From: an uncultured bacterium
GTDB taxonomy: Bacteria > Armatimonadota > Hebobacteria > CAIYQO01
DNA: 64,000 bases
Reading direction: 5' to 3'
NCBI GenBank assembly: GCA_964590255.1
Contig: CAZPYA010000009.1
Coordinates: 791 to 64,790, forward strand
The notes below the pieces were generated by a model. The model did not search any database, was not told where the DNA came from, and saw only the letters and a list, made by a program, of their open reading frames with translations. A program made the position numbers and the translations under genes. Of this stretch, positions 2,626 through 34,271 are shown piece by piece (positions within the stretch are counted from its first letter, which is position 1; every line of letters begins with the position of its first letter).

Positions 2626-5600
2626 TCAGAACGTCGCCTTCCCCGCGCCGCTGGTCACTGTCACGCCGCCGGCTTGCGGGGCCACGGTGACGGCGGGTTG
2701 TGTTCCCTTATTGTAGGCGACGATGATGACCTGGAAGGCGCCGGCGCCTTTGAGGCGCAGGATGGACTGGGTTTCGGGCATGACGTTTTTGTGGGCGTAC
2801 TGGGCGATGAAGGCCTCCTGCGGCGCGTCCGCGATGACATAGACATCCCAGTCGATGCCGCCCGCGGGGTGCTTGTCGAAGGTTTGGCCGGTGTAATGCA
2901 GCTTGGTGACCCCGGCGGGGATGGTGAAGCCCTCGCCTACGTTCTTCGGCCCCTGCGGCGTGTCGATGGCGCCGGCGTTCATCAGGTTCAACAGGAAGAC
3001 CTTGTTTTCGGGGGTCGTGAAGGCATCGCGGATGCCGATGGCGGCCACGTCGTCCTTCAGCATCGCCGTCTTCACCGTGCGCGTCCAGGTGGTGGGTCCC
3101 CAGGTGAAGCTGGCGGTGGACCACGCTTCGCGCTCCCGCGTCTGCACGTCGATGGTCTTCGGCGCGCCCCAGCGGCCGCCCTTGCTCACGTCCGGCGGGT
3201 TTTGCTTCCAGTCGCCCACCTGCGCCTCGGGCAGCACCAGGCTGTGCACGAAGCCGCCGCCTGAGTGCGGCGAATACATGGTGCCGAAGTCCAGCGACAG
3301 CGGCGCGCCGAGGGCGTAGATGATCGCCTCGCCCAGGTCGTTGGAGGCGTGGTCGCTGTAGAAGCCGCCGTTGACGAACCAGGTGGCGGTTTCGTTGGGC
3401 GTGCCCCAGCCGAAGCGCTGCACCGAGTACCAGCCCTCAACGTGCGCCGAGCCCAGCTTCGGGTCGACCGCGGGCAGGCTCTCGTCGATTTTGAAGGTAG
3501 TGGCGCCGTGGAAGTCGGAGTGGGGCTTGCCGCACTGCTGCCACGCGCCCATCAATCGCTTGGAATAGTCGGGGTCGAGATCGGCGTAGGCGGTGGCGAG
3601 CATGCCGAGGAATTCGGTGGCCTCGCCCGGGCAGGAGTCGCCGATGGCCGGGCGGGCGCGGCGGCCGAAGCGCGGGTCGACCGGCGTGCTGAGGTGCATC
3701 TCGAACTCGCCATATTTCTTCAGCCGCGGCTCTTCCTTGAACAGGTCGACGATGCCCGCTTGCTTGAGCTGCTGGCAGGTGGAGAGCAGCGGGCCGTTGG
3801 CGGCGCCGATGTAGTGGGTGCAGCCCATGTGCGCGCCGTGCTCGTTGATGGTGCCGCGCACCATGCCCCGCGCGCGCTCGGCCACGCCGGCGGCGCGCTC
3901 CTTCATCATCGGGTGGGTGGCCAGGTACAGCGCATACATGTCGCGGTAGCCCTGCTGCTGCACGGGCATGTTGGCGGTGCCCAGGTTCACGCCAGACGGC
4001 ACGGACAGCGGGGCGTGGTCGTCGTCCCACAGCGCGGTGGCGTAGAAGAGCGCCGCCTGGCGCGCCAGCGCCTTGTCCTCGTCGCTGGCTTTGTCCGAGG
4101 CCAGCACCTGGTCGATGCGCATCAGCGCGCGGCTGCCTTCCAGCCCGGCGTGCCAGTAGCCGAAGCCGTGGGTGCCCATGATGCCGCCGCGGTTCACCAG
4201 CGTGTCCAGGCCGTCGTGCGCGCCGCGCCACAGGAAGTAGGCCATGGTATGCACGCGGGCGCCGGACTGGTCTTTGATCATGTCGAGCAGGTCGCGGAAG
4301 TAGGTGACGGAGTTATAGGCGCCGCGGAAGAACTCCGGGTCTTCGCGCAGCTTGCGCACGACCTCGTCCGCGCCTTTCTTCGGCATATACATCGCGCCGT
4401 AGCCGGCCTTAGGCGCCGGGAAGTCATAGGTGAGGTTGGCGATTTTGTTCAGCGCGATGCCGCTGTGCAGGTTCATCTGCAGATTGATGGGTTGGATGTC
4501 GCGCCAGTCGCGCAGGTCGGCGCCCTTGCTGCCCACGAAGAGGCGCCACTGCCAGCGCTTCTCGAGGCTGATGCGGCCGTCCGGCCCGCGCTGCCACGCC
4601 TGCACGGTGATGCCGGTGCTGTTATCGGTGCGGGTGTAGACGCCCACGCCCACCGCGCCGGCATGGCGCAGGCGCGAGGCGCGGCCGTCGTAGTAGCCGA
4701 CCAGCGGGCTGGCGTCCGCGCCGTCCTTGTCATAGAGCATCCAGTAGCTGCCACTGTCGAACATCCACGGGTCCCATGGCTGCATCCAGCGGATGCACCC
4801 CTCGTTCAGGCTGGTGACGTAGTTGGAGCTGTAGTTCTTATCGAACGGCAGGTCGAAGAAGGCATCGGTGGACTGGCTGCTCACCGGGCGACCGTCGGGC
4901 CGATAGCCGAACTTCGGGTCGCGCACACTGTGGCCGCGGTAGCGCGCCTGGGTCAGCGTCAGGCCTTTCAGGCTGATGTTGTAGCTGAAGGTGCAGTCGG
5001 TCTCTTCCTCGAAGAGCACGGAGGGCTGGCCGGCCTGCACCTCGACGCGGCAGACGTATTTGCCGGGGCCGGCGGGGCAGACGACGGTGGCGCCGTAGTT
5101 GAATTGCGCGCGGTCCAGCTCGTAGGTCAGCTCGGCGACGGTTTTCAGCGGGCCTTGCTCCACCAGGTTCACGGTCACTTTATTCACGCGCGTGCCGGGG
5201 GTGAAGACGATGGGGGCGGGTTCGTTCGTCCACGCGCCGTTCGCCAACTGCACGGCCAGCACCGGCGCGGGGGCTTTCTGCGGGTCGGCGGGGACGTGCG
5301 ACACGGGCAGGCGCACGCCCAGCTTGCCGTTGGTGATCTCCCAGAACGTCTTCTCCGCGGGCTGCGTCACCTTCACGCCAGTGGTGACGGCTTTCGGCGC
5401 GCGGCCACTCTTCAGCGTCCACGTCCAGTCGATGAGCAGCTCGTGAATGCCTGTGCCGGGAGTGAGCAGATCGATGGGTTTGCCGCCCGGCTCGGCGCTC
5501 ACGGCGAAGCGGTCGGCGGTGGCGTTGCACAGATAATAGGTGGCGCCGATCTTCAGCGGCTGCGGCAGTTCGCCGAAGCTGCGGAACTTCACCGGCGCGC

Positions 5601-6237
5601 CGTTGACCAGCTTGTGACTATGCACGTAAAGCGTATTGGCGTCGACATCGGCCACCAGCGCCTGGGCGGTGATGCCGGCGTCGGTGCCCTGCTTCTCGAT
5701 GGGGATGGGCGCGCCGTCGGGGGTTTCGGCCAGGCCGATGAAGTATAAGCCCCAGCCGCCCTCCTCGCGGAACTCCAGCGGCCGCACGTAGTAATTCGTG
5801 TTGCGCTGCAGGCCCGCGGGCAGCGCCGCGCCGTCCACCTGCACCACGTCGCCGGGGGTGAAGTAGGGGCCGTCGGTCGACAGGCACTTCTCCACGCCCT
5901 TCGTGTCGAATTTCTTATAATTCGCCGCCCAGCCTTCGCAGGTGTTGCTGAGGCCGCGACGGATCGCCATGCGCGAGGCGGCCAGGTGGGTGCGCACGGC
6001 GAGTTGTTTGCCGCCATTCACCAGTTGATACGGCACCTCAGCGCCGTTGGGCGCCAGCAGGTAGCACTTCGCCGGGTCGACGGGCGCGGCCAGGTCGAAG
6101 GTGAGAATCTGGTCGGGGTGCTGCACGCCGAAGGTTTCCTTCAGCGTGAAGGCCGCCACCGCGTCCTTCGGTGTGCCCGCCTGGCCAAATGCCGCCACGG
6201 CCAGCGCCGCCAGCAGCAAGTAGAGCAGTTGTCGCAT
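2626..6237 (-). CDS. large secreted protein, possibly polysaccharide lyase (heparinase II/III-like C-terminal region)
   Basis: Start re-picked at ATG 6237 (MRQLLYLLLAALAVAAFGQAG is a signal peptide); the track's longer 6357 start would overlap the neighbouring gene. The middle region (GYWHAGLEGSRALMRIDQV...ALWDDDHAPLS) looks alpha/alpha-toroid-like. SDHASNDLGEAIIYALGAPLSLDFGTMY resembles the heparinase II/III H-x-D...G...D-G...Y pattern. Function is tentative. Confidence 0.75.
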   Translation of the reverse strand: MRQLLYLLLAALAVAAFGQAGTPKDAVAAFTLKETFGVQHPDQILTFDLAAPVDPAKCYLLAPNGAEVPYQLVNGGKQLAVRTHLAASRMAIRRGLSNTCEGWAANYKKFDTKGVEKCLSTDGPYFTPGDVVQVDGAALPAGLQRNTNYYVRPLEFREEGGWGLYFIGLAETPDGAPIPIEKQGTDAGITAQALVADVDANTLYVHSHKLVNGAPVKFRSFGELPQPLKIGATYYLCNATADRFAVSAEPGGKPIDLLTPGTGIHELLIDWTWTLKSGRAPKAVTTGVKVTQPAEKTFWEITNGKLGVRLPVSHVPADPQKAPAPVLAVQLANGAWTNEPAPIVFTPGTRVNKVTVNLVEQGPLKTVAELTYELDRAQFNYGATVVCPAGPGKYVCRVEVQAGQPSVLFEEETDCTFSYNISLKGLTLTQARYRGHSVRDPKFGYRPDGRPVSSQSTDAFFDLPFDKNYSSNYVTSLNEGCIRWMQPWDPWMFDSGSYWMLYDKDGADASPLVGYYDGRASRLRHAGAVGVGVYTRTDNSTGITVQAWQRGPDGRISLEKRWQWRLFVGSKGADLRDWRDIQPINLQMNLHSGIALNKIANLTYDFPAPKAGYGAMYMPKKGADEVVRKLREDPEFFRGAYNSVTYFRDLLDMIKDQSGARVHTMAYFLWRGAHDGLDTLVNRGGIMGTHGFGYWHAGLEGSRALMRIDQVLASDKASDEDKALARQAALFYATALWDDDHAPLSVPSGVNLGTANMPVQQQGYRDMYALYLATHPMMKERAAGVAERARGMVRGTINEHGAHMGCTHYIGAANGPLLSTCQQLKQAGIVDLFKEEPRLKKYGEFEMHLSTPVDPRFGRRARPAIGDSCPGEATEFLGMLATAYADLDPDYSKRLMGAWQQCGKPHSDFHGATTFKIDESLPAVDPKLGSAHVEGWYSVQRFGWGTPNETATWFVNGGFYSDHASNDLGEAIIYALGAPLSLDFGTMYSPHSGGGFVHSLVLPEAQVGDWKQNPPDVSKGGRWGAPKTIDVQTREREAWSTASFTWGPTTWTRTVKTAMLKDDVAAIGIRDAFTTPENKVFLLNLMNAGAIDTPQGPKNVGEGFTIPAGVTKLHYTGQTFDKHPAGGIDWDVYVIADAPQEAFIAQYAHKNVMPETQSILRLKGAGAFQVIIVAYNKGTQPAVTVAPQAGGVTVTSGAGKATF

Positions 6238-6325: not shown

Positions 6326-7492
6326 TCAGGACTCCGGCATGTCCCGGTCGAAGACATCGGGACCCAGCGGAGGGTCTTCCGTGTCCGCGGTTTTCGCCGG
6401 CGCGGGGGGCCCGGTGGGGACGGGCTCGGGCGAGCGGCCCTCGTGGATGAGCGGGTAATACCACTCGTTGTAGAGCACCTTGATCACCGCGGCGGCGGGG
6501 ACGGCGATGATGGCGCCGAAGAGGCCGAAGAGGCCGGAGAAGATGACCAGGGCAAAGATGAGGCTGACGGGATGCAGGTTCAGCGTTTTTTGCATCACCA
6601 TCGGCACGATGAGGTTGTTTTCCAACTGCTGGATGATGAGGAAGGCGAACACCACCATCACGCCCAGGAGCGGATTGATGGAGAAGCCCACCAGCGCGGG
6701 CAGCGCGGTGGCGATGATGGGGCCGACCACCGGCACGACTTCCAGCAGCCCGCCGATGACCGCGAAGGTCTCGATAAAGGGGATGTTGTGCGGCGAAAAG
6801 GCGTTGATGAGCAGCAGCGCCACGTAGTTCAGCGTGCCGATGATGATCCCCAGCAGCAGCGTGCCGAGCACCCAGCCGCGGATGCCGGCGGCGGCGCCGG
6901 CGCCGATGCGCTCCAGTTGCGGCCACCAGGCAGAAGGAAATAACCCGCGAATGCCGTAGAGTAACGGCAGCGGCTGCAACAGGGTATAGATCGTCGACAC
7001 GAGCACCAGCAGGCTGGCGGTGATGATCCCGACGACGCCGGCGAAGATGGTGCGCGCGGTATTAAAGAGCCAGCCGGAGGCATTGCCCAATTCGCCGAAG
7101 ATGCGGTTGGCGTCCAGCGCCGCGGTCAGGTCGGGGTAGCGCGCGAGCAGCGGGGCGAAGCGAGCGACGGTGGCCGTCCAGAAGGCCGGCAACTGCGCGA
7201 TGAACTCCTCACCCTGTGCCATTAGGCGCGGCACGACCAGCGCGATGACCAGACCGACGAACAGCAGCATGCCGGCGACGACCAGGGCGACAGCCGCGCC
7301 GCGCGGCACGCGGCGATTGGTGAGGCGGCGCACGAGGGGTTCCAGCGCCAGCGCCAGCAGCACCACGACGATGAAGAGCTGCAGCACCGACCAGACCAGC
7401 GGCGCGAGAATGAAGAGGATGACGACCGCGGCGACCAGCGCGATGGTGGTGGTGATCAAGCGCAGGGCGTGCGGATATCTGGAATCGGGCAT
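6326..7492 (-). CDS. AI-2E family transporter (PerM/UPF0118)
   Basis: 8-TM profile with the family-typical C-terminal block LEVVPVVGPIIATALPALVG...IIQQLENNLIVPMVMQKTLNLHPVSLIFALVIFSGLFGLFGAIIAVP. SD GGAGGA lies 8 nt before ATG 7492. Confidence 0.9.
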   Translation of the reverse strand: MPDSRYPHALRLITTTIALVAAVVILFILAPLVWSVLQLFIVVVLLALALEPLVRRLTNRRVPRGAAVALVVAGMLLFVGLVIALVVPRLMAQGEEFIAQLPAFWTATVARFAPLLARYPDLTAALDANRIFGELGNASGWLFNTARTIFAGVVGIITASLLVLVSTIYTLLQPLPLLYGIRGLFPSAWWPQLERIGAGAAAGIRGWVLGTLLLGIIIGTLNYVALLLINAFSPHNIPFIETFAVIGGLLEVVPVVGPIIATALPALVGFSINPLLGVMVVFAFLIIQQLENNLIVPMVMQKTLNLHPVSLIFALVIFSGLFGLFGAIIAVPAAAVIKVLYNEWYYPLIHEGRSPEPVPTGPPAPAKTADTEDPPLGPDVFDRDMPES

Positions 7493-11962: not shown

Positions 11963-12115
11963 CGGGCGCCGCCGTCCGCATTGTCGCGTTTTGCCCCGTG
12001 GGGTGGAAGCAATCTGCACATTGTTGTCGTCTGTTGCCCACGCGCCGTGCGCCGTCCGCTACAGTAAGGCTGCGTGCCTATTTATGGGCATCCACCACAG
12101 GAGGCATCGAGCGCC

Positions 12116-13270
12116 ATGGTGTATACGCTCTCGACCGAGCGCGATGTCTGCGAGTGCCGGCCACTGACCGACGACATCGACGCGGATCTGCTGGACTGCT
12201 GGCAGACCGTGGTGCGGCATGCTCCGGATACGCCGGTGTTCGCGCGCCCCGAGTGGGTGCTACAGGCGGTGCGCAGCGGCGTGACGCGCCAGGCGGCGCT
12301 GCTCGTTGCCTACCAGGCGGGCGTGCCCATCGGCATGCTGCCGGTGCAGCCGGTCATTCCCGGCTACTGGCAGGCGCTGATGCCCTTCAGCATGTCCGGC
12401 GCGGCGCTGGCGGCGCGGCCGGGCATGACCGAGACGGTCTGGACGCACGTCGCCGCCTGGCTGCGCGCGCGCGGCGGCCCGGGACTGCTCACCGCGGAGC
12501 TGAGCGCGGTCGGACCGCCGCTGCCGGCCGGTCTGGCGGTTGGGCGCCACGCCGTGCCGCCCAACCTGCGGGTACCGTTGGGGGAGAGCTGGGAGGCGTT
12601 TGTCGCCCGCCGTGGCCGCTCCACCCGCCGCAAGCTCAACACCCTCGCCGCGCGCCTCCATGACGGCATCCCCGGCCTGTCGATCGACATCATCACCCGC
12701 GAGGCGGAGGCGCCGGCGGCCATGGATACACTCATCAGCCTCTATCGCCGCCGCTGGGCCGACCAGGTGGGCGGCAGCCCGCTGTGCACCGGCTGCAACG
12801 CGCACTTCCTGCGCGAGGCGATGCGCTGGGCGGTGAGCCGCGGGTACGGTATCATCCCGGTCATCCGCTATCATGGCCGGCCCATTGCCCTCGGTACGGT
12901 ACTGGCTATCCCCGGTCAGCAAACGGCGTACTACCACTTCACCGTGCGCGACCCCGCCGGCGAGGTGCCGGCGCTGGTGAACAGCCCGGGCACGGCGCTG
13001 GCGGTGGTGGTGGCGCAATGGGCCATCGCCCACGGGTACCAGACGCTGGACATGGGCCGCGGCAGCGCGGGGTATAAGCAGCTCCTGGGTGGCGAGCCGT
13101 GCGGGCAGGAACGCCTCAGCCTCGCCACCTCGCCGCTGGCTGCCGCCGTGCTGCCCCGCCTCGCCCGCGCCGGCTACCTGCTGCAGCGCCTGCCCCTGCA
13201 CATCGGCTACCACGCCGGGCGCTGGTTGCGCCGGCCGGAACCGGTGGTCGAAGAGGCGCTGGCGGAGTGA
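12116..13270 (+). CDS. GNAT-fold acetyltransferase, CelD/BioF2-like (tandem paralog)
   Basis: Collinear with the previous gene (LISLYRRRWADQVGGSPLC...IPVIRYHGRPIALGTVLAIPGQQTAYYHFTVRD...VVAQWAIAHGYQTLDMGRGSAGYKQLLGG). SD CAGGAGG lies 11 nt before ATG 12116. Confidence 0.75.
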   Translation: MVYTLSTERDVCECRPLTDDIDADLLDCWQTVVRHAPDTPVFARPEWVLQAVRSGVTRQAALLVAYQAGVPIGMLPVQPVIPGYWQALMPFSMSGAALAARPGMTETVWTHVAAWLRARGGPGLLTAELSAVGPPLPAGLAVGRHAVPPNLRVPLGESWEAFVARRGRSTRRKLNTLAARLHDGIPGLSIDIITREAEAPAAMDTLISLYRRRWADQVGGSPLCTGCNAHFLREAMRWAVSRGYGIIPVIRYHGRPIALGTVLAIPGQQTAYYHFTVRDPAGEVPALVNSPGTALAVVVAQWAIAHGYQTLDMGRGSAGYKQLLGGEPCGQERLSLATSPLAAAVLPRLARAGYLLQRLPLHIGYHAGRWLRRPEPVVEEALAE

Positions 13271-13299
13271 GTATCCGGTTTCAGATTCCAATCTTGTTT

Positions 13300-13745
13300 C
13301 CAGCCGTTGAAACGGCTGGCTCGGTTCAGTCGTCCTTTCAGGACTGGCGGGGCGGGTATATGGTTCCAGCTTCTGTCTCCAGCCGTTGAAACGGCTGGCT
13401 AGATTCGGTCGTCTCTACGAGATTTGCGGGTAGGTATTCGGTTGCCGGGCTGCGTGATTGGCGATGAGGTGATGCCGGTACTTTCTCCAGCCGTTGGAAA
13501 TGGCTGGCTCGGTTCAGTCGTCCTTCCAGGACTGGCGGGGCGGGTATATGGTACCAGCTTCTGTCTCCAGCCGTTGAAACGGCTGGCTAGATTCGGTCGT
13601 CTCTACGAGATTTGCGGGTAGGTATTCGGTTGCCGGGCTGCGTGATTGGCGATGAGGTGATGCCGGTGTGCCTAATCGGACGCCACTCCGCCGCTGCTGC
13701 GTGGCTGACTACGAACGGGTTTTGTTGGTGAGCTGACCTATGATT
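13300..13745 (+). repeat. tandem structured repeat (family E): two ~187-bp units plus a conserved tail
   Basis: Hairpin CCAGCCGT-TGAA-ACGGCTGG at 13300-13319, 13379-13398, 13487-13507 (variant) and 13567-13586. Unit period is 187-188 bp. Tail cggacgccactcc...tgcgtggctgactacgaacgggtt..gtggtga.ctgacctat at about 13670-13745. A second locus lies at 33998-34200. Confidence 0.85.
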
Positions 13746-13838
13746 GGACATCGCAGACAGGTTGATGGCGGTGTGGTGACTATCTGCCACGAACGCCGCG
13801 GAGGGACGTTTGCTCCGCATACGGGCGGGAGTCATCGG

Positions 13839-14618
13839 TTACCGCTGGCCCAGTAGCACGTGCGTCTGCGGGATGACGCGGACGTCGCGCAGGTGGGCGG
13901 CGGCGCGGGCCTGGGCGTCGAGGGTGTCTGCGGCGGTGGGGGCGGCGGGGCCGCCGGGGCGGGGGGTGACGGGCTGGAGGATGCAGGGGATGGACGCGTC
14001 GCGGGCGGCGACGAGGGCGGCGGCGCGGGCGATGTCGTCGCCGCTGCCGGTGGCGAAGACCAGCTTCACCTGCAGGCCGGTGGCGCGGCGCGCCAGCGCG
14101 GCGTCGAGGAAGGCGGCGTGGGCATCCCACAGCGCCAGGCAGCCGGTGGCCGAAGGCAGCTTGATGTCCATCACCAGGTGGGTGGGCATCTCGTCCAGCC
14201 GCCACAGCTCGTCGGGGAGCATGCCGTTCGTCTCCAGGTAGGTGGCGATGCCTTCGCGGTGCAGTTCGGGCATGAGGATGTTCAGCGCCTCCCAGTGGCG
14301 CAGCGGCTCGCCGCCGGTGAGCGCCACCGAGTGGTGCGGGTAGGCGGTGAAGAGCGCGCGCGCCAGCCCCACCAGGTCGTCGGCGAAGAGCGGGTTGGGC
14401 AGCGCGTCGAAGACGCGCGACCCCGGCGCCGTCTCCACCTGGCAGGCGGCGGGGAATGCGGCGCGGCTGGCAGGCGTGTCGCAGTAGGCGCAGCGCAGCG
14501 GGCAACCGTGGAAACGCACGAAGAGCTGGCGCACGCCCACCAGCAAGCCCTCGCCCTGGATGCCGGAGAAGAGCTCGTGCAGCGTGGCGGCGACGCGGCC
14601 GGTGGAAAACAGGCTCAC
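13839..14618 (-). CDS. queE: 7-carboxy-7-deazaguanine synthase (radical SAM QueE)
   Basis: ELFSGIQGEGLLVGVRQLFVRFHGCPLRCAYCDTP (QueE N-terminal signature plus CxxxCxxC), GGEPL, C-terminal PQTHVLLG. GTG start at 14616-14618 overlaps the upstream TGA by 4 nt (GTGA). The track's longer N-terminus runs through the upstream gene. Confidence 0.85.
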   Translation of the reverse strand: MSLFSTGRVAATLHELFSGIQGEGLLVGVRQLFVRFHGCPLRCAYCDTPASRAAFPAACQVETAPGSRVFDALPNPLFADDLVGLARALFTAYPHHSVALTGGEPLRHWEALNILMPELHREGIATYLETNGMLPDELWRLDEMPTHLVMDIKLPSATGCLALWDAHAAFLDAALARRATGLQVKLVFATGSGDDIARAAALVAARDASIPCILQPVTPRPGGPAAPTAADTLDAQARAAAHLRDVRVIPQTHVLLGQR

Positions 14619-20359: not shown

Positions 20360-20573
20360 TCTGGTCCCCCGGATTGAAATCCGGGGCTGGAGAGACGAAG
20401 TCGGCCTACGCCGACTGGCCGGATCGGTTAATGGATACAGCGACGCATTGCTGACCGTGCCATGCGTGTGGGAGGAGTATATGCGCGAAAATGGGTACAG
20501 CAACGCATTTCCGGCTTCCCTATATTCGGTTACTATGTGCCTGATTGGGAAATGCGTTACAGTCCCCATTTTT
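20360..20573. repeat. composite hairpin/repeat block after pdhB (includes a family D pair)
   Basis: Hairpins ccccggattgaaatccgggg and agtcggc-ctac-gccgact. Family D arms are GAAAATGGGTACAGCAACGCATTTCC (20487-20512) and GGGAAATGCGTTACAGTCCCCATTT (20547-20573). Confidence 0.8.
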
Positions 20574-29930: not shown

Positions 29931-30422
29931 GTCACCGACCCCTTTCGCGATATACCGGGGCATACTGAAAATGCGGAATAAAAAACCCCGCAGTGCATGT
30001 CCGCGCTGCGAGGCATCATTATCCCCGCAGAACGGTGTTTCGTGGAATTGCCCCATCACATCTCCACGATACATCAATCCCACGGGATCGTAATTATCCC
30101 GTTGCCTATCAAGGCCCAGCCGCATCCCAGTCGTATTGGGACCGCCTGATTCTAAAAACAGTATAGCCCGGGAGGCATGCTCAGTCAAGCCGGCATTGAT
30201 GGGTTCGTAATACCAGTTGTACCGAGTGTGATTCGCATGACGCACTCTCACGAGACTGATTTCGGAAGTGACGCCGGTTCAACTTCGTGTTATTGCATGG
30301 TATGGCTATCCCGATGCTTCCATACGCCGGCCTTCCGGCGCAATTCCCCCGTCCTCTTGCCCGCTGGCCCGGCGATGCGCTATAGTGCAGTTGTCACTTA
30401 CCGCAGACATGGAGGCATGATC

Positions 30423-32477: not shown

Positions 32478-33809
32478 TCACAGATATTCGTGCAGTTGCG
32501 CGATGGTCTCCACGTCGACGTTGGGCGGGATGTGGATGCCGGCGGGGAGTTTCAGGCGGGGGTGGATGACCACGCCTTCGGGCAGGGTGACGCCGGCGCG
32601 GATGACCACTTCGTCGCCGAGAGCTACGCGGCTGTGCAGGCGCACGGGCGCCGACAGGGTGGACTGCAGGTCGACCATGAAGCCAAGTAGCGCGTCCTCC
32701 ATGTGGCTGCCCGGGCCGATGAGCGAGCCGGGGCCCAGCGAGGAGCGGAGGATGGTGGCTTCTTCGAGGATTTCGCAGTCGTCGTCGATATTGCTTTCGG
32801 CGATGGTGACGCCGGGGGCGATGGAGACGTAGCGGCCGATGCGCACCGGCGGGGTGATGGTGACCAGCCCGCGCGCCATCTTCTCCGCCAGGGTCAGCCG
32901 GCTGTGCGGGTCGCGCAGCGCCAGCGTGGCGGGGTCGATCATCAGCCCGCCGCCGTCGCAGTCGCCCGGCAGGCACGGATTGAGCTTGGTGAAACGGCCG
33001 TGCATCACGTCGAGCATCGTCTCCAGGTAGCTGGGAATATTGCCCAGGTCGCCCATGCGCCCCAGCGCGAAGGTGTGCACCGGGTAGCCGTGCTCCACCA
33101 GCCAGGGCAGCAGGTCGCCGCCGATGTCGAAGGCGCGGCGGCGGCGCTCCTGGATCGCGTCCAGGCCGGCGATGGCGCGCAGCGCGGCGATGTCGAAGAT
33201 GTAGAAGCCGCTATTGGTGGTGAGCGGCGGCAGCGGGGCGTCGTCTCCGGCACCGTACAGCCCGCGAATCTCGGCCAGCGAGGGCTTTTCGTGAAAGCCC
33301 AGCACCGCGCCGTCGCCGGCGCAGCGCACCAGCCCATAGCGCCCGGCGATCTCTTCGGCGGGGTGGGTTGCCACGGCGATGGTGGCTACCGCACCGGTGG
33401 CGCGATGGTGCGCGAGCATGGCCGGCAAGTCGATGTCGAAGACGGTGTCGGTGGCGAAGACTACGGCGGTGCCGTCCATCTCGAAGAACGCCAGATTCGC
33501 CAGCAGCGCGTCGGCGCTGCCGACATTCGTGTTATCCAGGCTCACCGGCGAGTAGCGGATGCGCACCCCCAGGTCGTCACCGTAGCCGACGATTTGCTTG
33601 ATCTGGTAGCGGTTTTCCTTGCCCTTGGTGATGATGAGATAGTCGTCCAGCCCCTGCATGCGCAGCAGATCGAGGATCCAGTCGATGACGCGCCGCCCGA
33701 GCAGGGTGATGGCCGCCTTGGCGCGCAGATAGCCCGGCGCCTTCAGCGTCAACGGCCGAATGCGCACCCCGCTGCCCCCCGCCAGACCGATGCCGATAAT
33801 TGGTTCCAT
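32478..33809 (-). CDS. sugar-phosphate nucleotidyltransferase with C-terminal left-handed beta-helix domain
   Basis: SD GGGAGGTG lies before ATG 33809. IGLAGGSGVRIRPLTLKAPGYLRAKA is a G-x-G-x-R-x-x-P NTP-transferase motif. The C-terminus carries hexapeptide-like repeats (IGRYVSIAPGVTIAESNIDDDCEILEEATI...). Confidence 0.85.
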   Translation of the reverse strand: MEPIIGIGLAGGSGVRIRPLTLKAPGYLRAKAAITLLGRRVIDWILDLLRMQGLDDYLIITKGKENRYQIKQIVGYGDDLGVRIRYSPVSLDNTNVGSADALLANLAFFEMDGTAVVFATDTVFDIDLPAMLAHHRATGAVATIAVATHPAEEIAGRYGLVRCAGDGAVLGFHEKPSLAEIRGLYGAGDDAPLPPLTTNSGFYIFDIAALRAIAGLDAIQERRRRAFDIGGDLLPWLVEHGYPVHTFALGRMGDLGNIPSYLETMLDVMHGRFTKLNPCLPGDCDGGGLMIDPATLALRDPHSRLTLAEKMARGLVTITPPVRIGRYVSIAPGVTIAESNIDDDCEILEEATILRSSLGPGSLIGPGSHMEDALLGFMVDLQSTLSAPVRLHSRVALGDEVVIRAGVTLPEGVVIHPRLKLPAGIHIPPNVDVETIAQLHEYL

Positions 33810-33997: not shown

Positions 33998-34200
33998 CCA
34001 GCCGTTGAAACGACTGGCTCGCTTCGGGCGTCCCGCTGGGACGGGCGGGGTGGTATGGTGTTTTCAGGGTGCATGCCCTCATGATAGGTCGGAGGCGGTG
34101 TGCGTGGTCGGACGCCACTCCACTCTCGTTGCGTGGCTGACTACGAACGGGTTCTAGTGGTGACTTGACCTATACTCGTGCGGATTGAAAATCCGCGCTC
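33998..34200 (+). repeat. family E structured element, single-unit copy
   Basis: CCAGCCGTTGAAACGACTGG (33998-34017), hairpin CGTCCC-GCT-GGGACG (34029-34043), conserved tail cggacgccactcc...tgcgtggctgactacgaacgggtt.tagtggtgacttgacctat, then hairpin gcggattgaaaatccgc. Confidence 0.85.
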
Positions 34201-34271
34201 CCAGTGTTGGCGAAGTATAGCAGAGTTGGCGGTTTTTGTCAAGCGGATGTTTGTGTTGGCGCGGTGTGGGG

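What the first reader, a model, noticed from the sequence alone, without database searches (positions are those of the whole stretch)
13300..13745. Tandem 187-bp structured repeat (family E) built from CCAGCCGT-TGAA-ACGGCTGG hairpins
Seen in sequence:
- Four copies of a 20-nt perfect hairpin (8-bp stem, TGAA loop) lie at 13300, 13379, 13487 and 13567.
- They are organised as two near-identical 187/188-bp units. Each unit contains two sub-modules of the form hairpin-1, CT...TTC.G, short hairpin-2, GCGGG.
- A ~75-nt tail follows (cggacgccactcc...tgcgtggctgactacgaacgggtt...ctgacctat), with a GCCAC/GTGGC stem around a variable loop.
- The third hairpin-1 copy changes ACGGCTGG to ATGGCTGG, which keeps pairing as G-U.
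- The block fills the 570-bp gap between convergent genes and has no credible ORF.

This is not CRISPR-like: the units are long and there are no unique short spacers. It looks like a BIME/REP-type array or a tandemly duplicated small RNA gene.
Basis: seen in the sequence. Interest (0 to 1): 0.6.

Follow-up and report, generated by a model that had tools for sequence, protein, structure and literature searches.

The report
Hairpin-repeat mosaic: Acido-Lenti-1 modules plus REP
The 570-base gap between two genes holds a recently duplicated array of a catalogued but unexplained hairpin motif (Rfam "Acido-Lenti-1"), capped by a short palindromic repeat that flanks a dedicated transposase-like gene in related bacteria, so it looks like selfish repeat DNA and not a new RNA gene.

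Summary
Positions 13299-13667 are two 188-bp units at 97% identity. Each unit has two double-hairpin modules, and a roughly 60-nt tail follows, ending at 13741.

- **Modules.** All four modules, a fifth at 33998 and a diverged sixth at 20367 match Rfam RF01687 (Acido-Lenti-1). This is an abundant motif of unknown function whose original members already stand in tandem arrays with 69-200 nt spacing.
- **Tail.** The tail is a separate repeat, a REP. In two other Armatimonadota MAGs, inverted doublets of this unit flank both sides of a 197-198-aa REP-associated tyrosine transposase (RAYT). That protein scores 103.8 bits against NCBIfam NF047646, has NHYH and YIHNNP motifs, and matches PDB 4ER8.
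- **Link between the two.** One relative carries Acido-Lenti-1 modules whose first hairpin holds the REP's 13-nt loop.
- **Orthologous sites.** Close relatives lack the element at the orthologous sites.
- **Transcription.** No RNA was seen, but the organism's coverage in the metatranscriptomes is very thin.

My reading is a BIME-like mosaic of REP-type hairpin repeats, expanded locally by tandem duplication (confidence 0.6). A structured RNA is not excluded.

The parts
13299..13667 (+). Tandem array of two 188-bp units (A1+B1, A2+B2) at 97% identity, a recent local duplication
   Evidence: TRF; alignment
13274..13299 (+). AT-richer leader (GGTTTCAGATTCCAATCTTGTTT). It is partly conserved in front of other copies in the metagenomes. 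The boundary is uncertain.
   Evidence: Loose-end consensus sequences before 13299 and 13486 (agreement 0.59-0.70); sequence
13300..13345 (+). Module A1 (Acido-Lenti-1). Hairpin 1 is 13300-13319 (8 bp, TGAA loop), the linker is 13320-13331, hairpin 2 is 13332-13344 (GTCCT-TTC-AGGAC).
   Evidence: Rfam RF01687, 42.2 bits against a gathering score of 37; model R1, 52.3 bits
13379..13424 (+). Module B1 (Acido-Lenti-1). Hairpin 2 is GTCTC-TAC-GAGAT. It is followed by a spacer-like extension to 13486.
   Evidence: Rfam, 29 bits, E 3e-4; R1, 47.1 bits
13487..13533 (+). Module A2. Hairpin 1 has one extra loop base and a G-T pair.
   Evidence: Rfam, 25.1 bits; R1, 35.7 bits
13567..13612 (+). Module B2, identical to B1
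13613..13679 (+). Spacer ('middle'). Its 3' end (GTGCCTAATCG) aligns with the spacer of REP doublets in relatives.
   Evidence: Alignment A5
13680..13719 (+). T unit, a REP. The hairpin is GCCAC-14 nt-GTGGC (13682-13705) and the box is TGACTACGAACGGG (13706-13719). On the minus strand it reads CCCGTTC-GTAG-TCAG-hairpin.
   Evidence: The same unit occurs in L002, L003, L024, L110 and L111 and flanks RAYT genes
13720..13741 (+). Tail extension TTTTGTTGGTGAGCTGACCTAT. The AGCTGACCTA part matches the sequence that lies beside T units in L111, so it is probably a fragment of a neighbouring unit.
   Evidence: the right end at 13741 is supported by loose ends
33998..34043 (+). Module C (Acido-Lenti-1). 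Hairpin 2 is GTCCC-GCT-GGGAC, compensatory relative to A and B.
   Evidence: R1, 41.4 bits; sequence
34044..34173 (+). Spacer plus T unit (hairpin 34114-34137, box 34138-34151) plus extension ending at 34173
20367..20418 (+). Diverged sixth module: CCCCGGAT-TGAA-ATCCGGGG, linker, GTCGGC-CTAC-GCCGAC
   Evidence: R1, 20.7 bits, E 7e-4 with filters off; sequence

Best explanation
The block is a BIME-like mosaic of two related kinds of REP-type hairpin repeat. It is non-coding DNA that spreads through intergenic regions as single-stranded hairpins handled in trans by a HUH tyrosine (Y1) enzyme.

Its parts are as follows.
- Four co-oriented Acido-Lenti-1 double-hairpin modules.
- A spacer.
- One T unit. 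This is a REP with a 5-bp stem, a 13-14-nt loop and an ACTACGAACGG box, which reads GTAG 5' of the hairpin on the minus strand.

The basic dispersed element is module + spacer + T, about 176 nt, as at 33998-34173. At 13300 an extra solo module (A) lies in front of it. A 188-bp piece (A plus most of B) was then duplicated in tandem, probably by slippage or unequal exchange.

Shown:
- the anatomy of the block;
- covariation in both module hairpins and in the T stem;
- membership of the modules in RF01687;
- multi-copy status in the source metagenomes;
- absence from the orthologous sites of close relatives;
- T-unit doublets flanking bona fide RAYT genes in two other Armatimonadota MAGs.

Inferred:
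- a RAYT of this genome moves or maintains the T units;
- the Acido-Lenti-1 modules are substrates of the same or a similar enzyme;
- any host use, such as protection of transcript ends, is secondary.
For: (1) The modules are Acido-Lenti-1. The two hairpins covary strongly across 53 sequences. 95.5% of cells are paired, 12 of 13 pairs change on both sides, and the covariation score is 0.74 against at most 0.12 for the slid controls.

(2) The family behaves like a dispersed repeat and not like a single gene.
- The original seed holds dozens of copies per genome, in tandem arrays at 69-200 nt spacing and in alternating orientation (coordinates).
- My loci show tandem arrays (L013 with five copies, L014) and inverted doublets (L004, L008, L012, L014, L015, L027).

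(3) The tail is a separate repeat.
- It forms a BIME-like cluster of about eight direct and inverted copies in L002.
- It occurs as a singleton in L003 and as doublets in L024 and L027.
- The stem covaries with no mismatch: GCCAC/GTGGC, GGCAC/GTGCC and GCTAC/GTAGC.

(4) T doublets lie on both sides of a 198-aa gene in L110 and of its 50%-identical homologue in L111.
- The L110 protein P0241 scores 103.8 bits against NCBIfam NF047646, REP-associated tyrosine transposase (cut-off 80). The L111 homologue P0297 scores 62.7 bits, below that cut-off (E 3e-17).
- P0241 matches E. coli TnpA-REP, PDB 4ER8, at E 9e-8.
- The HuH motif NHYH is invariant across the seven aligned homologues, and P0241 carries the Y motif YIHNNP (class 2 signatures in PMC6006769).

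(5) There is a link between the two repeat kinds. In L027 the Acido-Lenti-1 hairpin 1 carries the T-type 13-nt loop TCCGCTGCGCTGC, and both kinds keep ...CT plus a 12-nt linker ending GAAC.

(6) Depth in the source metagenomes rises from about 7 to 49 over module A and to 102 over the T core. Many contigs run off into other flanks.

(7) Relatives with 87-92% identical flanking proteins have no module or T unit at the corresponding sites. A relative at 74% has only 28 nt after queE.

(8) On the plus strand I found no promoter or terminator, no ORF with a family match and no other Rfam match.
Against: - No RAYT or other Y1 gene was found in the 64-kb window or in most held loci.
- The RAYT genes I found are flanked by T units and not by Acido-Lenti-1 modules. 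R1 finds nothing near them. The REP nature of the modules therefore rests on architecture, genomic behaviour and the L027 hybrid.
- Synteny is broken at both orthologous sites, so there is no clean empty-site comparison and no target-site rule.
- All six module copies in the window point the same way, which a strand-specific RNA would also explain.
- Wobble-pair counts do not settle which strand folds. The seed gives 8 G-U against 38 A-C on the annotated strand. My independent set gives 5 against 4. The window's own copies have two independent G-T pairs on the plus strand and one on the minus strand.
Confidence: 0.6

Rival explanations
1. The modules, with or without the tail, work as structured RNA. 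One form is a family of small RNAs made from their own promoters. The other is cis-acting hairpin arrays inside neighbouring transcripts, for example docking sites for an RNA-binding protein or blocks to exonucleases. In this reading the tandem array simply multiplies the binding sites.
For: - Rfam files the family as an sRNA, and one copy passes its gathering score.
- Covariation keeps both hairpins.
- In the seed, loops on the strand opposite the annotation are GNRA in 28 of 44 copies, GNNA in 35 of 44, and GNA triloops in 32 of 44. These are typical of folded RNA.
- At locus 2 a near-consensus sigma-70-type promoter (TTGACA, 17 nt, TG-n-TATACT, 11 of 12 matches) on the minus strand at 34242-34214 would transcribe the element's minus strand.
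- At locus 1 the minus strand lies directly after the queE stop codon.
- All six copies in the window share one orientation.
Against: - There are dozens of copies per genome, and many loci show inverted doublets. This is unusual for RNA genes.
- Orientation relative to transcription is inconsistent within the window. The copy at 20367 is sense to plus-strand genes, the copy at 33998 is antisense to the flanking minus-strand genes, and locus 1 lies between convergent genes.
- No promoter or terminator was found on the plus strand.
- Three metatranscriptomes from the same samples give read-length contigs on neighbouring coding sequences (12107-12430, 32586-33459) and none on any module or tail. 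This evidence is weak because coverage is very thin.
- The element is absent at the orthologous sites of close relatives.
- G...A loops are also the stable loop type in single-stranded DNA (established knowledge).
Confidence: 0.25
2. The block is a miniature transposon (MITE) moved by a DDE-type transposase, or a functionless minisatellite that grew only by slippage. In this reading the hairpins are incidental.
For: - The 188-bp units are 97% identical, so local duplication certainly happened.
- One related contig has a DDE_Tnp_1 gene about 1 kb from an Acido-Lenti-1 doublet.
Against: - There are no terminal inverted repeats and no target-site duplication at either locus. The left ends are ...TTGTTT|CCAGCC and ...ATCAGCT|CCAGCC. 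The right ends are GACCTAT|GATTGG and GACCTAT|ACTCGT.
- Compensatory changes across phyla show selection for pairing, which a neutral satellite would not show.
- The same units recur at unrelated loci and in unrelated genomes.
Confidence: 0.08

Closest known systems
Rfam RF01687, Acido-Lenti-1 RNA motif (Weinberg et al. 2010, PMC2864571)
   Same: It has the same layout: an 8-bp hairpin with a 4-nt loop, an invariant GGCU foot, a 12-nt linker and a 5-bp hairpin with a 3-nt loop. It also occurs in tandem arrays and in many copies per genome. One copy here passes the gathering score.
   Different: It was described from Acidobacteria and Lentisphaerae, and this member is in Armatimonadota. Here the modules are fused to a spacer and a REP (T unit) to form a composite of about 176 nt. 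Four of the five strong copies score below Rfam's gathering threshold. [quoted passage not shown]
REP / BIME / REPIN repeats with their RAYT (TnpA-REP) genes, e.g. E. coli (PDB 4ER8) and Pseudomonas
   Same: They are short GC-rich intergenic palindromes with GTAG 5' of the hairpin (minus strand of the T unit). They occur as singletons, inverted doublets and mixed clusters. In relatives the RAYT gene is flanked on both sides by the repeat. There are no inverted ends and no target duplications.
   Different: The T hairpin has a short 5-bp stem and a large conserved 13-14-nt loop. GTAG lies 4 nt from the stem and not directly at it. The RAYT is a 197-aa form (NHYH, WY, YIHNNP), closest by its motifs to subclass 2.8 or 2.6 of Quentin et al. 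2018, and here it occurs in Armatimonadota. The Acido-Lenti-1 modules have a second hairpin and a YAG foot in place of GTAG.
IS200/IS605 elements and their transposase-less derivatives (PATEs)
   Same: They have subterminal hairpins, no inverted repeats and no target duplication, and they are handled as single-stranded DNA by a Y1 HUH enzyme.
   Different: 49 canonical IS200-type loci gave no module match apart from one weak hit of 19 bits. No left and right end pair and no conserved target tetranucleotide could be defined from the two full copies.
Multi-hairpin protein-sponge RNAs (CsrB/RsmZ type)
   Same: They carry repeated short hairpins in tandem on one strand.
   Different: There is no GGA-type loop motif, no promoter or terminator, no transcript evidence, and the units also occur in inverted orientation.

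Membership tests
Rfam RF01687 Acido-Lenti-1 | Covariance-model score at or above the gathering score (37 bits) | tested here: met
   13300-13345 scores 42.2 bits. The other four copies score 25-29 bits (E 3e-4 to 4e-3), below the gathering score. They score 35.7-47.1 bits with model R1, which was built from the seed plus new copies.
Rfam RF01687 Acido-Lenti-1 | 8-bp hairpin with 4-nt loop, GGCU foot, 12-nt linker, 5-bp hairpin with 3-nt loop, with pairing kept by compensatory change | tested here: met
   Alignments. Hairpin 2 varies as GTCCT/AGGAC, GTCTC/GAGAT and GTCCC/GGGAC. The covariation score is 0.74 against at most 0.12 for controls.
Rfam RF01687 Acido-Lenti-1 | It is an RNA (Rfam type 'Gene; sRNA') | tested here: inconclusive
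   No RNA contig lies over any copy in three metatranscriptomes, while neighbouring coding sequences have a few. Coverage is far too thin to decide.
REP/BIME with RAYT (REPtron) | Short imperfect palindrome with conserved GTAG 5' of the hairpin | tested here: met
   The T unit on the minus strand reads CCCGTTC-GTAG-TCAG-GCCAC...GTGGC. GTAG is 4 nt from the stem. The modules have only YAG at the foot.
REP/BIME with RAYT (REPtron) | Occurs in intergenic DNA as singletons, inverted doublets and clusters of direct and inverted copies | tested here: met
   L002 cluster, L003 singleton, and doublets in L024, L027, L110 and L111. All lie between genes.
REP/BIME with RAYT (REPtron) | A cognate RAYT gene flanked by the same REPs | tested here: met
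   This is met in relatives and not in this genome. L110 6001-6597 has T doublets at 5713-5975 and 6613-6738. L111 3501-4094 has T units at 3300-3428 and 4112-4284. The proteins score 103.8 and 62.7 bits against NF047646 (cut-off 80) and match PDB 4ER8 at E 9e-8.
REP/BIME with RAYT (REPtron) | A RAYT gene and many REP copies in this same genome | not testable with these tools
tblastn of the window found no Y1 gene. The depth excess in the source metagenomes suggests tens of copies.
MITE of a DDE transposon | Terminal inverted repeats and target-site duplication | tested here: not met
   The ends and flanks of both full copies were read directly and show neither feature.
CRISPR array | Short constant repeats alternating with unique spacers of similar length | tested here: not met
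   The units are 79 and 108 nt and the 'spacers' are themselves duplicated at 97%.
IS200/IS605 ends | The modules flank a canonical IS200-type tnpA | tested here: not met
   49 of the 80 IS200-type loci fetched from viral contigs were searched. Only one weak R1 hit was found (19.1 bits).

The most novel reading that the evidence does not exclude
Acido-Lenti-1, catalogued since 2010 as an orphan small RNA, would not be an RNA gene. It would be one branch of a REP superfamily whose hairpins are single-strand DNA substrates of HUH tyrosine enzymes. The Armatimonadota T unit would be a large-loop relative of its first hairpin, with hybrids such as the L027 copy as intermediates. It is demonstrably the REP of a 197-aa RAYT family spread over Armatimonadota, Chloroflexota and Planctomycetota. 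The loops in the seed read G...A on the strand opposite the Rfam annotation. This would mean the database strand is the wrong one.
Probability: 0.4. Interest if true: 0.6.

Novelty: new member of a known kind. Interest (0 to 1): 0.42.

Why it matters
For genome annotation, the block should be labelled as repeat DNA (Acido-Lenti-1 modules plus a REP). It should not be labelled as a new RNA gene, a CRISPR-like array or a regulatory leader.

More broadly, it gives a concrete handle on an abundant motif that has had no explanation for sixteen years. Here the motif stands in one array with a repeat that has a clear RAYT partner in related genomes, and one relative carries a hybrid of the two. This makes the RNA-or-DNA-repeat question testable with a defined enzyme family and defined oligonucleotides. 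It also extends REP-RAYT systems to Armatimonadota.

Tried and rejected
- **Other known RNA families.** cmscan of 12800-14300 at E<=10 gave only Acido-Lenti-1 plus two chance hits. ARAGORN finds no tRNA or tmRNA there.
- **Coding potential.** The three ORFs in the gap have no Pfam hit.
- **Single-sequence folding.** The z-scores are -0.4 to -1.2, which is uninformative.
- **Phage or plasmid origin.** The module and tail patterns are absent from viral contigs. The one 19-mer hit (L001) lies inside a coding sequence and is chance. There is no plasmid match.
- **Y1 or RAYT gene in the window or first loci.** The IS200 sequence later matched real loci at 100%.
- **Canonical IS200 ends.** They are not related to the modules.
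- **Strain-level variants of the array.** Contigs from the source metagenomes break at the repeat, so copy-number polymorphism could not be read.
- **Empty-site test.** Relatives lack the element, but the neighbouring genes differ too, so this does not prove insertion.
- **Folded strand from wobble pairs.** The seed favours the reverse strand, but my independent set and the window's own copies do not.
- **GC skew.** It changes sign within the window and is not usable.

Full report
**1. What is there**

Tandem Repeats Finder reports one array at 13299-13667 with period 188, 2.0 copies and 97% matches. Each unit consists of a 79-nt A module and a 108-nt B module. Both have the same layout:
- an 8-bp hairpin, CCAGCCGT-TGAA-ACGGCTGG;
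- the foot CT;
- a 12-nt linker;
- a 5-bp hairpin with a 3-nt loop;
- GCGGG..GGTAT..GGT.

The 20-mer hairpin is exact at 13300, 13379 and 13567. It has an extra loop base and a G-T pair at 13487, and one mismatch at 33998. The chance expectation is 0.01 matches. After B2 come a spacer and a tail that ends at 13741. The locus at 33998-34173 has one module, a spacer and the same tail.

The gap lies between the stop of a GNAT-like gene (13270) and the stop of queE (13839-13841, minus strand). The gene limits of queE were confirmed by an exact protein look-up. The short ORFs in the gap have no family match.

**2. The modules are a known motif**

All five copies match Rfam RF01687, Acido-Lenti-1. 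The first copy scores 42.2 bits against a gathering score of 37. The others score 25-29 bits.

The motif was described by Weinberg et al. 2010 (PMC2864571) in Acidobacteria and Lentisphaerae, with no function assigned. [quoted passage not shown]

Coordinates in the original alignment show that its members already stand in tandem arrays. Spacings are 69, 74, 110-115 and 192-200 nt. Some members stand in alternating orientation. A 188-bp tandem arrangement is therefore normal for the family.

I built a model (R1) from 44 seed sequences plus 9 new copies. On that alignment 95.5% of cells pair. Twelve of 13 pairs change on both sides. The covariation score is 0.74, against at most 0.12 when the partners are slid.

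With filters off, R1 finds the five copies and a diverged sixth module at 20367-20418. All six are on the plus strand.

**3. The family behaves like dispersed repeat DNA**

A pattern scan of metagenome contigs returned 13 loci from soils and waters. They carry different stems that keep pairing: CCAGGGG.., CCGGGCG.., CCAGGCG...
- Tandem arrays occur in L013 (five copies, period about 67) and L014.
- Inverted doublets occur in L004, L008, L012, L014, L015 and later L027.

In the lake metagenomes that hold this organism, summed contig depth rises from about 7 on the flanking genes to 49 over module A and 102 over the tail core. Many contigs leave the element into other flanks. Some join an A-type module to variant spacers and then to the tail. 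The unit module + spacer + tail is therefore itself multi-copy.

**4. The tail is a separate repeat, a REP**

The exact tail core occurs in two other MAGs.
- In L002 it forms a cluster of about eight direct and inverted 39-nt units with no module.
- In L003 it is single.
- Further copies appear as inverted doublets in L024/L025 and L027.

The 5-bp stem changes in a compensatory way: GCCAC/GTGGC, GGCAC/GTGCC and GCTAC/GTAGC. No mismatch occurs in about two dozen units. On the minus strand the unit reads CCCGTTC-GTAG-TCAG-hairpin, which is the REP layout.

**5. The REP has a RAYT partner in relatives**

Beside the L027 doublet lies a 198-aa ORF with no precomputed Pfam family. It gave a weak Y1_Tnp hit (E 0.0016). 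The following results establish it as a RAYT.
- It scores 103.8 bits against NCBIfam NF047646, "REP-associated tyrosine transposase" (cut-off 80).
- It matches E. coli TnpA-REP (PDB 4ER8) at E 9e-8.
- It carries NHYH and YIHNNP. These are the HuH and Y---NP signatures of class 2 in Quentin et al. 2018. NHYH is invariant across seven homologues.

Fetching more flank (L110) shows two T doublets upstream (5713-5975) and one downstream (6613-6738) of the gene.

A 50%-identical homologue in another Armatimonadota MAG (L111) is flanked in the same way. Its T units have the same GCCAC stem as the window's tail.

The protein family has 608 members at E<=1e-5. They are about 197 aa long. Sources name them transposase or RAYT in Armatimonadota, Chloroflexota, Anaerolineae and Planctomycetota.

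**6. Link between modules and T units**

In L027 the Acido-Lenti-1 copies have hairpin 1 = CCCAGGGT-TCCGCTGCGCTGC-ACCCTGGG. This is the 13-nt loop of the T hairpin set in an Acido-Lenti-1 stem. It is followed by CT, a 12-nt linker ending GAAC, and hairpin 2. T units keep the same CT foot and a linker ending GAAC, but lack hairpin 2.

All T loops start with T and end with C on the plus strand. In a 44-sequence subset of the seed, hairpin-1 loops are UNNC in 35 copies and hairpin-2 loops are UNC in 32 copies. On the opposite strand all of these read G...A (GNRA, GNNA, GNA).

I read the T unit as a large-loop relative of hairpin 1. This is an inference. R1 finds no module next to the two RAYT genes.

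**7. Which strand folds is not settled**

- In the seed, the annotated strand has 8 G-U cells and 38 A-C cells. Together with the G...A loops, this points to the opposite strand. However, the 38 cells come mostly from two polymorphisms in Lentisphaera.
- My independent set gives 5 G-T against 4 A-C.
- The window's own copies have G-T pairs that work only on the plus strand (A2 hairpin 1, B hairpin 2) and one that works only on the minus strand (C hairpin 1).

**8. Context and transcription**

Locus 1 lies between convergent genes. Locus 2 lies between two minus-strand genes. The sixth module lies between plus-strand genes. Orientation relative to transcription is therefore not constant.

No promoter or terminator was found on the plus strand. 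At locus 2 a near-consensus promoter on the minus strand (34242-34214) points into the element. The gene downstream also has a conserved proximal promoter region shared with a sister lineage that lacks the element.

Three metatranscriptomes from the same samples give a few read-length contigs on neighbouring coding sequences and none on any module or tail. Coverage is too thin for more than a weak argument against an abundant sRNA.

**9. Relatives**

- The lineage with 92% (NDP-sugar synthase) and 87% (QueE) identical proteins has no module or T unit at either site. Another repeat (CCTTGTGGGG three times) follows queE there.
- A 74% relative has only 28 nt after queE.
- Neighbouring genes differ in each case. 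This shows lineage-specific repeat content but is not a clean empty site.

**10. Verdict**

The finding is real and is a member of a known motif family. The best-supported reading is a BIME-like mosaic of REP-type hairpin repeats with a recent 188-bp tandem duplication. The tail's REP-RAYT identity is well supported. The modules' identity as REP-type repeats is inferred.

Noticed in passing
L110:6001-6597 (= L027:20718-21314, minus strand); L111:3501-4094: A 197-198-aa RAYT family (NHYH, WY, YIHNNP) that has no precomputed Pfam hit in most members. It has 608 homologues spread over Armatimonadota, Chloroflexota and Planctomycetota. Many lie on very short contigs, as expected if repeats flank the gene.
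   Followed up: partly
window 34214-34242 (minus strand) and 34177-34193: A near-consensus sigma-70-type promoter (TTGACA, 17 nt, TG-n-TATACT, 11 of 12) just after the stop of the DUF1559 gene. It is followed by a small hairpin, GCGGATTTTCAATCCGC, and points into the element and towards the NDP-sugar synthase gene.
   Followed up: partly
window 20367-20418: The palindrome between the two PDH E2 genes is a diverged Acido-Lenti-1-type module: 8-bp hairpin with TGAA loop, GGCT foot, linker and 6-bp second hairpin.
   Followed up: partly
window 30073-30162 (minus strand): A NiCo (nickel/cobalt) riboswitch match, 43 bits against a gathering score of 37.
   Followed up: no
L003:7540-7760 and L024:9236-9400: Another hairpin repeat family in the JAKPKV01 Armatimonadota MAG (GGGGACAGTCCCC). 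One copy is followed by ATTTCACGACGAACGGGATGG, the same ACGAACGGG box as the T unit. L024 has a larger nested palindrome around its T doublet.
   Followed up: no
L111:3300-3361 and 4112-4173: T units whose loop carries a nested extra hairpin (CCCAATCAACGCGGAGTACCGCGTTGGGG). The large loop therefore tolerates insertions.
   Followed up: no
L028:3806-3934: In the sister lineage, queE is followed by a different repeat: CCTTGTGGGG three times, with an inverted CCCACAAGG.
   Followed up: no
Weinberg 2010 seed alignment: On the annotated strand the seed has 38 A-C cells but only 8 G-U cells. Its loops read GNRA or GNA on the opposite strand, so the Rfam strand assignment may be reversed.
   Followed up: partly
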